Assembly: GCA_964016885.1 (NCBI GenBank) | Contig: OZ024760.1 | Span: forward strand, 17,918,001 to 17,982,000 | Source: Eledone cirrhosa | Taxonomy: Eukaryota | Direction: 5' to 3' | Length of the DNA: 64,000 bases | In this document: positions 1,051 to 48,690 of the stretch, piece after piece | How positions within the stretch are numbered: the stretch's first letter is position 1 | How the letters are laid out: the number at the start of each line of letters is the position of its first letter | Made by a program: the position numbers and the translations under genes | The notes under the pieces: model-generated | What the model was told of the DNA's origin: nothing | The model's database searches: none | What the model saw: the letters and a program-made list of their open reading frames with translations, nothing else

Positions 1051-2200
1051 TATATATATATATATATATATATATATATATATATATATATGTATATATA
1101 TATATATATATATATATATATTTATATATATATATATATGTATATTTATATATATATATACATTTATATATATATATATATACATACATATATATATATA
1201 TTTATATATATATATGTATATATATATATATGTATATTTATATATGTATATGTATATTTATATATATGTATATTTATATATATATATGTATATTTATATA
1301 TGTATATTTATATATATATACATTTATATATATATATATATACATACATATATATATATATATTTATATATATATATATATATATGTATATTTATATATA
1401 TATATATATGTATATTTATATATATATATATGTATATTTATATATATATATATGTATATTTATATATATGTATATTTATATATATATATATATGTATATT
1501 TATATATATATACATTTATATATATATATATATACATACATATATATGTATATTTATATTTATATATATATACATTTATATATATATATATATACATACA
1601 TATATATGTATATTTATATATATATATATATATGTATATATATATATATATATATATATATAGGAACAAGTAAGACCCCGACGGCTGAGCTCAAGCCGTC
1701 GGGGTCTTACTTGTTCCTATTACCCACTCTACTACCCTAAGTATTGAGTACTTTGGTGCGTTATGGTCCACCTGGTTCCTTACCACATTTCCTTCGTTAT
1801 ATATATATATATGTATGTATATATATATATATATATATATATATATATATATATATATATATATATATATATATATGTATATTTATATATATATACATTT
1901 ATATATATATATATATATATGTATATTTATATATATATACATTTATATATATATATATATATATACATACATATATATATATATATATTTATATATATAT
2001 ATGTATATTTATATATATATATATATATATATATATACATACATATATATATATATTTATATATATATATATACATATATATATACATACATATATATAT
2101 ATGTATATATATATATATATGTATATATATATACACATATATATGTATATATATATATATGTATATATATATACATACATATATATATATATATATATAC
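1051..2200. repeat. Degenerate (TA)n tract interrupted by a family A insert
   Basis: TA repeats with TG/TT/CA interruptions on both sides of 1661-1797. Confidence 0.95.
1661..1797 (+). mobile_element. Family A mini-element (inverted short end plus long tail)
   Basis: Hairpin 1661-1719 (TAGGAACAAGTAAGACCCCGACGGCT...AGCCGTCGGGGTCTTACTTGTTCCTA), then tail ...GTATTGAGTAC...TTCCTTCGT; (TA)n on both sides. Confidence 0.9.
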
Positions 2201-2531
2201 TATAAAGTATGTCTAAAGAATCATTTGATAAGATATATATACACCATTTCCTCTACCAATCAGCATAATCAACCACACAAAAAAACCAATTAAACCAGGC
2301 TATCAGATTAAAATGCACCTATGAAGAAATAATAGATAAACAAACGACAGCCATCTATTCGCGATCAACAGCTATAGAATATTTACCCAGCATTTCCATA
2401 GCACGTGGAAATCGATTAAATATATCGTCAACCATACACAATTAGGTATAAAATTAAAGTTAGAAGAAAAAATGTATATAAAAATACCAGGATTATATAT
2501 ATATCGGAAACATAACCTTATTATGTAACAA

Positions 2532-2605
2532 GCTGTCTGATGATGTCACGACACTCGCACACAGAACAGTGTGGCCAGTGTCGTCATTGAAATATATATC
2601 ACAGC
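2532..2605 (+). ncRNA. Type I hammerhead ribozyme motif with extended stem II
   Basis: GCTGT-CTGATGA-TGTC ACGACACT...AGTGTCGT CATT-GAAA-TATATA-TC-ACAGC; stem I GCTGT/ACAGC; tail motif TTGAGTGC at 2694, then (TA)n. Confidence 0.8.
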
Positions 2606-3954
2606 ATTATTATTAAAAGACTTGAACATCTGAAACTACTTCGCTTTTACTTATTCGATATTTACTCCGTCATTCCTATGTGGAAAAAGTACGTTGAGTG
2701 CTTGAATTGAATTGCATCAATATTTACCCTAAGTATATATATATATACACACATATATATATATATATATATATATATATATATATATATATATATATAT
2801 ATATATATAATAAATGTAATCTGAGTTTTCCGAATATTAATAACAATTTTTGATTCGTTTGCAATTATGCAAATAGGCCTCATTTAAAAAAAAAATGTAT
2901 ATATGTGTGTGTGTGTGTGTGTGTGTGTATAAAGATGTTACACTATAGTTATTTTATCGAAATTTGTAGGTATTGATTTTTATGATGTTTTTATTGTTGT
3001 TGCTGCTGCTGCTGTTGTTGTTGCTGTTGGTGGTGTTGTTGTTGTTGTTGCTATTGTTGTTATACTTTGGTGCCATTGTAAACCGTCGTTGTTTCTATTA
3101 TTATTATTGTTATTATTGTTATTGTTGTTGTGGTTGGTGTCATTGTCACGCCTCTGACTACCACCACCACCAATACCACCACGGCTATTACTGCTCCTCC
3201 TCTATACACTATATTGATGTAGTTACCCCCACCCCTACCTCAGCCCACCCACACCATCTAACACCCAGCCCACCCCACCGACCCCTCTTTTCTTTCTATT
3301 TCATTCTCTCTAGATAAAAAGCATATCTCCAGTCCGCCATTATTGTTCAAGGACCTTACTAATTACACATGCATTCTAAAGCAGGGTCCATAGTTGTCAT
3401 GAAACACTTTCTCTTTCCCCTTAAATGTTACCCGCCCCTTTTGTCAGCGGGTGTCAATTTTTCTCACCTAGGATCTCTCCTCTCCTCCCTCTCTCCCCAC
3501 CTCCATCAACACCCTACTCCACCACTCACCTAGCATCCCTCCCTCCACCAACACCTACCACCACTCACCCACCCCCACCCGCTCCACCTCCACCTTCCTC
3601 CATCACTCTCCCTCCCTCCCTCTCCACCTCCACCCCTCTCCACCTCCACCAACACCTACCTCCACCACTCACTCCACCCGCCACCCGCTACCGCCTCTAA
3701 ACCCTTTATGTACACCTTACACGAGACATTAATTCATATACACACCCTAATGTGTGTATAGTGGACGTTGAGTATTAAACGAGCTTTTCATGGCTTTTAA
3801 ATATCTGAAAATACGAAATTAAGGATCCGATGGTCCCGCGCTGTAAGTGTGAAACCTTTAGAAACCGTGTCTGATACTCAAAAGGATAAAACTTCATTTG
3901 TTTCCAAACAATCCCTTTTTTCCTTCCAAAATGATTATTATTATTACTATTATT

Positions 3955-4148
3955 GGGCGGTGAATTGGCAGTATTGGTAGGGGGTTGGACACCATGCTTT
4001 GACGCATAGAGTTACAGCCCTTGCCATTCTGAGTTCAAATCCCGCCGAGGTTAACTTTGCCTTTCATCCTTACGGGGTCGATAAAATAAAGTACCAGTAA
4101 TGTATTGGAATAATTGCTGGCATTGTGCCAAAAGTAGAAACAATTATT
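3955..4148 (+). mobile_element. tRNA-derived SINE (family S2), near full length
   Basis: GGCGGTGAATTGGCAG head, GAGTTCAAATCCC B-box, body GAGGTTAACTTTGCCTTTCATCCTTACGGGGTCGATAAAATAAAGTACCAG; more than 12 copies in the window. Confidence 0.9.
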
Positions 4149-4152
4149 ATTG

Positions 4153-46074: not shown

Positions 46075-46720
46075 TGTATATATATATATATATATATATA
46101 TATATATATATATATATATATATTTATATATATATATATATATATATATTTATATATATATATTTATATATATATTTATATATATATTTATATATATATA
46201 TTTATATATATATTTATATATATATATATTTATATATATATTTATATATATATATATATATATATATTTATATATATATATTTATATATATATTTATATA
46301 TATATATATATATTTATATATATATATATATATATATATATATACATTTATATATATATATTTATATACATTTATATATATATATACACATTTATATATA
46401 TATATATACATTTATATATATATATATACATTTATATATATATATATATATATATATATATATATATATATATATATATATATATATATATATACATTTA
46501 TATATATATATATATATATATATATATATATATATATATATATATATATATATACATTTATATATATATATATATATATATATATATATATATATATATA
46601 TATATATATATATATACATTTATATATATATATATATATATATATATATATATATATATATATATATATACATTTATATATATATATATATATATATATA
46701 TATATATATATATATATATA
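46075..46720. repeat. (TA)n tract
   Basis: Direct inspection. Confidence 0.95.
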
Positions 46721-47524
46721 CATAAATACATAAATATATAAATACATAAACAGTGAAACGATGTCGATTGCTTTTCTCTGGTTTGAGTTTTTTTATATTT
46801 GGATTTCTTCTTATATAAAAATATTGATTTTCTCCGAAGTTGTCTTTTTAATAGTTTCAACACGACTCTTCCTTTTACCTCTCCACTCAAGCAGAAATGT
46901 TTATTTTTCAGTTTGCCTTTTCCATTCCAGGTAGACAGGATACAAATATTCTGTTAATGATTTGGTTTTGCTGCTTTTTTTTCTAAAAAAAAACAACTTT
47001 TATTCAAAAATATACCTCTCGACATTCTATTAAAACTACATAATCGATTAAAATCCCAGTTATAAATATACCTTACCAATTTAGAGCTGACGAGAAAACA
47101 TTTTTAAATGGCGGTCAATTAAATATGGTTGAAAATTGAAGATGGATGTAAATTGAAGATGCCAGGAAATGAAATTAAATCAGTCAATCTATGAAACATT
47201 TACAGTGTTAAAATAAAAACCAAGTAGTTTATTTCTTGTACTTTCCATAAATATTCATTTCCCAGAAATAACATTGTGGTATTATAAATGTGCAGTGATG
47301 AGATGATGACAAGTGGAATAACTCTCATATATCGTCTGCTAATATAAATTGAGGTTTGTAAAGAAAATAGTTTAAAAAAACAAGAAGACTGAAACCAGAT
47401 TTTATCGGTTTACGCATTAAATTTGTAATTAATGTCTTGAAAAGATTTTACTTTTAAAAAGAAAATAAAACTATATTTTAATCATTTGTAAATAAACAGT
47501 GAAGCGAAGAATCTGTAGAAATGT

Positions 47525-47704
47525 TTAGAAAATGTAGAAAATATTGAACGCTGGATAATAGCTGTGAACACAGCTTAGAAAATCGGGTAAAATACCCCTA
47601 TAGACGCCTAGCCACTTCTTTCCGTTTATATGGGTGTTTTACCCGATTTTATAAGCTGTGTACACAACTATTTTCCTGCGTTCGAGATTTTATACATTTT
47701 CCAA
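47525..47704. mobile_element. Foldback / MITE-like palindrome
   Basis: ~80-bp imperfect inverted arms (AAAATCGGGTAAAA / TTTTACCCGATTTT) with a ~16-nt spacer. Confidence 0.75.
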
Positions 47705-48492
47705 GTATATTTTAATCAACACCGCCGCGCTCAAGGCCCAGAGCCCATAACCCTCTCACACCTCCTTTACTTCTGTGGCCTATATACATATATATATATA
47801 CATACATACATGGTGGCTGCCAACTCGTTTTCGAGTACGGCCATTACTTTATATCCATGTAGGAGAACCCCTACCGATGCGCTGAACAAGAGTGACTTTT
47901 TAGTCCAGCCAGCGACTTGAAAACTCTGGTACAAACACTACACTTGTGACAATTATTGACACATAGTGCTGGGCCCATGGTACCATGTGACGACAAGTGC
48001 AGAGAGATCTCCAGATATAAAGCAATGTCTGTGCCGTGAAGCTTTTATAGTGAGCAAAGGCACTGCACAAAGCCAGTCCCACTCTCTTAACCAAGATGAT
48101 ATTTACCAAAAAGAAGAACAAGTCAACATCATTGGATACCATCAGGGTTGCAGGTGTTATATCAGAGTGTTCCTTCTCCTAGAATTCTGCCTTGATAAAG
48201 GCTAAGAGGTCATCTTTCCCGGTGATTTTGGATGGCCATTGACTCTTAAGAGCTCCTTTGCCCTTTGACAGGTTTTGTTTTTAGTCCTGCAGGATGTCCA
48301 AAGTCACCCTCCTCAACAAGAAACCTTGGCGGGGTTGCCAGTTTAGTCGCCAACGACCCGACCATGAGATAAGTTGTACTGGGATACATGTTACCAGTAG
48401 CACCAACTGGTGACCTGACATACATACATACATACATACATACATACATACATACATACATACATACATACATACATACATACATACATATA

Positions 48493-48690
48493 CGTTTATC
48501 CCGGGTTCAATCGGGGGGTAACCACAGTAAGTAAGGTACTCAATACATAGCAGAGTATAAATATTTAATATGGAAATGGCTTTTACAGGACTAGAAATGT
48601 TTCATTCGGAAGAAATTGTCAGGAAGCTCTGATGATTTGTCCCGAATGAAACAGTTCTAGTCCTGTAGAAGCCATTTCTATATTAAATAT
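48493..48690 (-). mobile_element. Family E element: long tail (-) plus short end (+)
   Basis: Plus arm CTGATGA-TTTGTCCCGAAT-GAAA-CAG TTCTAGTC CTG-TA-GAAGCC (48629-48673); inverted copy at about 48560-48623. Confidence 0.87.

What the first reader, a model, noticed from the sequence alone, without database searches (positions are those of the whole stretch)
1661..48690. Shared 'two 3-prime ends facing outward' architecture: short end and long-tail end joined back to back
Families A (1661, 9404, 21314, 30893, 41450), B (31748), D (29806, 31424, 37591), E (24596, 48493) and J (24310) each have one arm ending about 20-50 nt after the cleavage site and an inverted arm ending at a longer tail. The outer ends are fixed per family. 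The inner junction varies: the palindromic stem III loop (1661), a 1-nt centre (30946), filler DNA (9458, 41585), or no overlap at all (21382). At 30893 both arms share private substitutions. Established: inverted 5' segments and a 3' tail are described for PLEs. Inference: both strands of a break in (TA)n prime cDNA at two defined template positions, and the two short cDNAs are end-joined, giving MITE-like palindromes by a retro route.
Basis: partly seen in the sequence, partly recalled or inferred. Interest (0 to 1): 0.75.

Follow-up and report, generated by a model that had tools for sequence, protein, structure and literature searches.

The report
Two-ended priming scars of Penelope retroelements
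These small mirror-image insertions are real remnants of a known jumping gene (a Penelope-like element) in a layout already described, and in this genome they almost always pair one short with one long end, which suggests that both cut DNA strands likely start a copy at two different fixed spots near the front of the element's RNA.

Summary
The inserts are stubs of Penelope-like elements (PLEs). Family A's parent is a 3,542-bp tandem unit with a 717-aa RT/GIY-YIG protein bearing Hydra-clade motifs. The layout (inverted copy, one-sided tail) and two internal RT start sites are in print, and this scan noted the layout in at least 11 other genomes. What this genome adds: short+long pairs 9,737, short+short 77, long+long 78; family E 22 of 23. 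Junctions vary (79 distinct of 92), so this is not a MITE. Arms usually stop at a TATA/Inr-like site in two families, often with a non-parental G (66 G vs 5 A; 47 vs 4 and 2), like a copied cap. Eight informative copies show an exact 14-bp target duplication. Either arm can be the longer, which argues against fold-back. Best reading: both 3' overhangs of a staggered (TA)n break prime cDNA at two fixed sites near the capped 5' end of probably one RNA, then end-joining. No RNA or biochemical test was possible.

The parts
1663..1797 (+). Family A stub: inverted short arm (1663-1699) joined to long arm (1694-1797) through 6-nt stem III microhomology
9406..9600 (+). Family A stub, short arm left, filler TTAAAA, long arm right
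9392..9405 (.). 14-bp target-site duplication, left copy (TA run with a CA interruption)
9601..9614 (.). 14-bp target-site duplication, right copy
21314..21447 (-). Family A no-overlap stub: long arm stops about 10 nt short of the short start site, joined by a T run to a short arm
30895..31079 (+). Family A stub, blunt junction at 30946; one common and one rare allele shared by both arms
41450..41653 (-). Family A stub: long arm 41450-41584, filler copied from adjacent sequence 41585-41594, non-parental G at 41595 before +1 (41596)
24311..24549 (-). Family J stub, long arm left, A/T-run junction, short arm right
24596..24793 (-). Family E stub; short arm starts at Inr-like +1 (24728) with non-parental G at 24727
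48493..48691 (-). Family E stub, long arm left, short arm right
31750..32043 (+). Family B stub; short arm carries the whole hammerhead, long arm begins inside it
29807..29933 (+). Family D no-overlap stub (about 10 nt of long end plus short arm)
31421..31596 (+). Family D no-overlap stub
37591..37770 (+). Family D no-overlap stub

Best explanation
These are one-off insertion stubs of endonuclease-bearing Penelope-like retroelements, likely made when both 3' overhangs of a staggered break in (TA)n each prime a cDNA, one at a short and one at a long internal site of the element's RNA, and the two cDNAs are then end-joined. SHOWN from sequence: the parent element, two fixed outer ends, near-exclusive short+long pairing, variable junctions, an inner boundary at a TATA/Inr-like site, a frequent extra G there, a 14-bp duplication, TAT at both family A start sites, and both arms from the same subfamily or locus. 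INFERRED: a 14-nt stagger with 3' overhangs; ATA-3' pairing with UAU; +1 is the transcription start and the G is a copied cap, so most stubs copy the RNA's capped 5' end rather than a truncated 3' end; one RNA held by a protein dimer serves both primers, the long-site RT displacing or colliding with the short cDNA; NHEJ or polymerase-theta-type joining gives the blunt, 1-4-nt microhomology and templated-filler centres.
For: Pairing 9,737: 77: 78 with one gap range, where independent choice predicts about 2:1:1; several listed exceptions are heads of longer elements or TA-interrupted tails. Family E 22 of 23 pairs short+long, 1 unclassified. Junctions in 81 parsed of 92: 33 filler, 16 blunt, 32 with 1-4 nt microhomology; 79 distinct centres of 92. 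Arm starts lie at -6 to +7 in those 81; among 29 opposed pairs listed none has a length between 128 and about 518 nt (read by eye). TATA-like box at -29 in A, 29-30 nt before CCAGATT in E (3 parent copies). Extra G: 66 G vs 5 A of 71; 47 vs 4 and 2 of 53; parent -1 base T 22, C 5, G 0 of 27; E 12 G, 1 A, 1 T among unexplained bases in the first 50 junctions (by eye), two junctions with G on both arms. 14-bp duplication in 5 of 7 copies interrupted on both sides, shuffle mean 0.44, plus 3 more. 417 no-overlap copies, 28 of 30 fetched ending short, 15 of 100 listed stopping at the short site against 7, 3, 3 and 1 at other microhomology sites. Arm haplotypes identical in 79 of 88, the other 9 differing at one site; shuffle mean 26. 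A 1.43-kb inverted arm differs from its own array at 9 sites and from three other arrays at 16-26. PMC11167929: both strands cut and extended, two start sites, dimer predicted.
Against: No RNA data: start site and cap are inferred from DNA. In my unselected 92 copies the unexplained base before +1 was G in only about 5 of 12 arms; the strong G excess comes from two chosen junction contexts, and the G could be the first base of a templated filler. 24 of 31 informative copies had a TA interruption on one side only and 2 of 7 two-sided ones did not match, so the 14-bp duplication is not universal or is blurred by slippage. PMC11167929 saw no strand difference in start site and reported no homology between primer and template. 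Only 1 of 32 singleton variants is shared by both arms, so one RNA molecule is not proven; window 31127-31403 looks like a join of two families. Microhomology at family E short ends is weaker (T or TATAT).
Confidence: 0.7

Rival explanations
1. Fold-back or self-priming: one cDNA turns back on itself (or an antisense template self-primes, as proposed in PMC3846280) and the copy is resolved at the short site by the endonuclease.
For: Arms nearly always share alleles; some centres sit on self-complementary words (AATT, AGCT, stem III); would give short+long pairing without a dimer.
Against: 417 no-overlap copies whose short arm has no template in the long arm; either arm can be kilobases longer than the other (L244, L257, L258, L260 short side longer; L246, L259, L261 long side longer); 33 of 81 centres are fillers and 16 blunt; G on both arms in some family E junctions.
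Confidence: 0.08
2. Two-ended priming on two separate RNAs from the same locus, the asymmetry set by non-equivalent subunits or by the order of nicking.
For: Needs no strand displacement over +1 to +58; template jumps onto other RNA positions occur (L252-L254); an apparent two-family join at 31127-31403.
Against: 0 of 88 elements discordant at more than one diagnostic site; long arms pile up at the short site (15 of 100), as a collision on one RNA predicts.
Confidence: 0.17
3. The inner boundary is an RT stall or a preferred end-joining spot in hammerhead loop II on read-through RNA, not a capped 5' end.
For: A minority of arms runs seamlessly upstream of +1; starts are spread over about 13 nt.
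Against: The boundary lies in loop II in A but in the 5' strand of stem I in E, yet 29-30 nt after a TATA box in both; the extra base is G in both.
Confidence: 0.15
4. A self-transposing MITE, or an assembly or library fold-back artefact.
For: Small, palindromic, TA-flanked, very abundant.
Against: 79 distinct centres of 92; the same ends on multi-kb insertions of an RT-coding parent; ends present in raw reads; artefacts would not give 98% asymmetry or a 14-bp duplication.
Confidence: 0.02

Closest known systems
Complex insertions of EN+ PLEs (PMC8557442: passages and section 11 read; PMC3846280: passages read)
   Same: Inverted 5'-truncated copy, tail at one end only, partial tandems, (TA)n bias, palindromes at the inverted junction, optional TSD.
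   Different: Tails here are about 65-95 nt, not 30-40; pairing is quantified at 98.4%; arms stop at a promoter-like site with an extra G; those papers propose endonuclease resolution or antisense self-priming.
PAc (Poseidon, Anolis) in vitro TPRT (PMC11167929: parts 1-2 of 4 read, supplements searched for three terms, no hits)
   Same: Both strands cut and extended, two internal start sites bounding the tail, uncleaved RNA as template, dimer predicted.
   Different: No strand-to-site assignment or explanation of the inverted arm in the parts read; start sites called non-homologous to the target, whereas both family A sites read TAT.
Hydra clade of PLEs (PMC8557442 section 11)
   Same: DKT, CxCX5C linker, no CCHH, C-terminal GIY-YIG, hammerhead, (TA)n targets.
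   Different: RWR in place of RWK; unit 3.5 kb rather than under 3 kb; no tree built here.
L1 twin priming and cap-derived G (PMC11702581, passages read)
   Same: Second DNA end primes internally, discrete 12-18-bp TSD, inner junction by c-NHEJ or MMEJ, extra G at full-length 5' junctions.
   Different: In L1 it is occasional, the second site varies and the arms barely overlap; here it looks like the rule, both sites are fixed and both arms usually copy the same 5' segment.

Membership tests
EN+ Penelope-like element | Single ORF with RT and C-terminal GIY-YIG endonuclease | tested here: met
   717-aa ORF with YRDD and VIY..YIG; nearest Atlas clusters 0.96-0.99, some carrying GIY-YIG/RVT_1 on 18-92% of members; Pfam and PDB gave no hit. 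Tested for family A only.
EN+ Penelope-like element | Tandem or partial-tandem units forming pLTRs | tested here: met
   3,542-bp tandem units and partial tandems
EN+ Penelope-like element | Type I hammerhead in the pLTR | tested here: met
   Stems I-III fold around TTGAGAA and GAAAC (z-score 0.07, so not unusually stable); U3-A8 variant described in PMC4209133 (passages read). Rfam's listed top 150 of 334 matches held no hammerhead family. Cleavage untested.
EN+ Penelope-like element | Inverted 5'-truncated copy with one-sided tail | tested here: met
Hydra clade | DKT, CxCX5C, no CCHH, (TA)n target | tested here: met
   HSDKTG, CNCPDRSIC, one Cys between VIY and YIG
Hydra clade | RWK motif | tested here: inconclusive
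   RWR at the matching place
Hydra clade | Phylogenetic placement | not tested
   No reference Hydra sequences fetched
MITE | Copies share one constant internal structure and full terminal inverted repeats | tested here: not met
   79 distinct centres of 92; ends asymmetric
Non-LTR retrozyme | Tandem units each with a complete hammerhead (10.64898/2026.07.22.740005, part 1 of 5 read) | tested here: not met
   Stubs are head-to-head, and family A stubs lack the 5' core
Twin priming (works like) | Both target ends prime on one RNA molecule | not testable with these tools
   Same locus shown once; same molecule not shown

The most novel reading that the evidence does not exclude
PLEs start reverse transcription near the capped 5' end of their RNA with two polymerases on one molecule, make two 'strong-stop' cDNAs, and build pseudo-LTRs and full-length copies by jumping from the cap to downstream RNA, a retrovirus-like strand transfer; the stubs are events in which neither cDNA jumped. 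Support: direct partial tandems whose last unit restarts at about -3 to +4 and jumps to about +200 to +360 (L224, L226, L252-L254). Not shown: jumps to the true 3' end would be seamless, and read-through RNA explains long arms equally well; no pile-up of joins at the hammerhead-cut end (17 matches in all, about 2 at the site).
Probability: 0.25. Interest if true: 0.8.

Novelty: new variant of a known kind. Interest (0 to 1): 0.52.

Why it matters
How PLEs make their inverted, one-tailed insertions is called unresolved in PMC8557442 and PMC11167929. About 10,000 copies of one family turn a drawn 'typical structure' into rules: one short plus one long start, a 14-nt stagger, stops at a likely capped start. 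These give direct predictions for the existing in vitro system. If right, two-ended priming is the normal integration route of this telomerase-related class, not an accident as in L1. It also explains tens of thousands of MITE-like palindromes that annotation would misfile as DNA transposons.

Tried and rejected
No RNA holder listed, so expression and start site are untested. Rfam scan: listed matches were microsatellite-driven, none at gathering score. Pfam and PDB: no hit for the ORF. First junction parse tolerated mismatches and gave false 7- and 14-nt microhomologies; replaced, which dropped 11 of 92. Hammerhead-cut RNA as main template: rejected, 584 arms stop in the 25 nt around the site and about 10 of 100 listed at it (by eye), a mild excess only. 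End-to-end jumps onto a cut 3' end: no peak. The idea that only the 3' copy has a full hammerhead fits A but not E, B or D. Rolling synthesis of tandem arrays: not needed in the one array examined, where three units are identical and differ from the terminal unit, suggesting later DNA duplication. A 3' splice site at the boundary was considered; the bases before the G vary, so no constant exon. Folding of the 5' RNA was unremarkable (z -0.31). No dimer prediction was run. [quoted passage not shown] PMC2377424, PMC3681739 and PMC10018344 passages added little; PMC2377424 reports a TATA-less internal promoter for Drosophila Penelope, unlike the TATA-like boxes here.

Full report
Observation. Each has the 3' half of a type I hammerhead on one or both arms. 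For family A, an exact 22-mer across the cleavage site occurs 13,924 + 13,987 times in the 3.0-Gb genome. Raw reads of the same species label end sharply at the long end, the short end and the inner edge, which rules out an assembly origin for the ends; few reads spanned one exact centre because centres differ.

Parent. Sequence past the long end continues into an ORF in 316 places. The unit is 3,542 bp, often tandem, and codes a 717-aa RT with a C-terminal GIY-YIG domain. DKT, CxCX5C, lack of CCHH and (TA)n targeting match the Hydra clade as defined in PMC8557442 section 11; RWK reads RWR and no tree was built. With +1 at the A of TTAGTCC: hammerhead core (U3-A8 variant) at -43, TATA-like box at -29, cleavage after +41, short end +58, long end +141, ATG +232. 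Both ends are followed by TAT in the parent, matching the target repeat. Parents of B, D, E and J were not traced to an ORF.

Pairing rule. With one gap range (80-110 nt), short+long 9,737, short+short 77, long+long 78, i.e. 98.4% of 9,892. The patterns differ by a few fixed letters and miss unpaired, mutated or longer copies. Long insertions keep the rule wherever both ends were fetched, and family E gave 22 of 23.

Junctions. In 92 consecutive chromosome-1 copies there were 79 distinct centres; of 81 parsed, 33 had filler, 16 were blunt and 32 had 1-4 nt of microhomology; many fillers copy adjacent arm sequence. This refutes a single transposing MITE.

Inner boundary. Arm starts cluster from -6 to +7. 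The spot matches an Inr-like word 29-30 nt after a TATA-like box in A and in E (consensus recalled, not from a call), though it lies in different parts of the ribozyme in the two families. A non-parental G precedes +1: 66 G vs 5 A, 47 vs 4 and 2 (where a templated filler could also give G), against parents with T 22, C 5, G 0; in E 12 of 14 unexplained bases in 50 junctions read by eye. In the unselected 92 it was about 5 of 12, so the effect is real in chosen contexts but not on every arm. An extra G marks cap copying in L1-driven insertions (PMC11702581). I infer that most stubs copy the capped 5' end of uncleaved RNA. Arms starting at the cleavage site are about 10 of 100 listed among 584.

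Target. Earlier scan notes mentioning TSDs prompted this test. Five of 7 copies with TA interruptions on both sides had an exact duplication, all 14 bp, including window 9406-9600 (shuffle mean 0.44, max 3); three more. Twenty-four copies were interrupted on one side only and 95 were uninformative. A 14-nt stagger leaving two 3' overhangs is the inference.

One template or two. Arm haplotypes were identical in 79 of 88 and never differed at more than one site. A 1.43-kb inverted arm is closest to its own array. Long arms that stop early (417 copies) pile up at the short site, 15 of 100 against at most 7 at other microhomologies (by eye); 28 of 30 fetched had a short partner (script 26, plus two with interrupted TA read by eye). 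This fits collision on one RNA but does not prove it; only 1 of 32 singletons is shared, and 31127-31403 looks like a two-family join.

Fold-back. Rejected as the main route because either arm can be far longer than the other and no-overlap copies exist.

Comparison. The layout is described in PMC8557442 and PMC3846280; both-strand extension, two start sites and a predicted dimer in PMC11167929. The scan holds 36 similar notes in at least 11 genomes; they are unchecked leads, not support. My searches showed no statement of the pairing rule or the extra G for PLEs, within an open-access library only.

Verdict. Real, known in layout, with unusually strong population evidence on an unsolved mechanism. 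Best explanation 0.7; novelty a new variant of a known kind; interest 0.52.

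Noticed in passing
window 31127-31403: Family D long arm joined head-to-head, without TA between, to D 5' sequence and a 19-nt short end of an A-like family that begins at its cleavage site: a possible two-family chimera.
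   Followed up: partly
window 506-634, 24053-24105, 37815-37940: A-like sister family (GGAAAAGAGTCAGGACCCC type) with the same short and long ends; 506-1050 carries an upstream hammerhead with a long stem II.
   Followed up: partly
L243:8170-9988: A PLE tandem array turns into more than 30 copies of a 55-bp unit from the ORF at its truncation point.
   Followed up: no
L246-L247: Three tandem units identical to each other but 6 changes from the terminal unit over 1.4 kb, suggesting array growth after insertion.
   Followed up: partly
L224-L226, L252-L254: Direct partial tandems whose last unit restarts at about -3 to +4 and jumps to about +200 to +360, some with 1-3 nt microhomology.
   Followed up: partly
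window 9636-9932, 31127-31403; L008, L058: Families B and D have a GGTATGT splice-donor-like word upstream of the hammerhead, recalling the pLTR intron of Drosophila Penelope.
   Followed up: no
window 6870-6899, 19536-19569, 44884-44914: Minimal hammerheads of other repeat families (CTGAAGA or CTGATCA ... GAAAC GTC), also TA-flanked.
   Followed up: no
window 24290-24887, 29807-30087, 30895-31946: Stubs of different families sit in chains within single TA tracts, each insertion leaving new target on both sides.
   Followed up: no
window 58812-58922: Long inverted repeat of another family.
   Followed up: no
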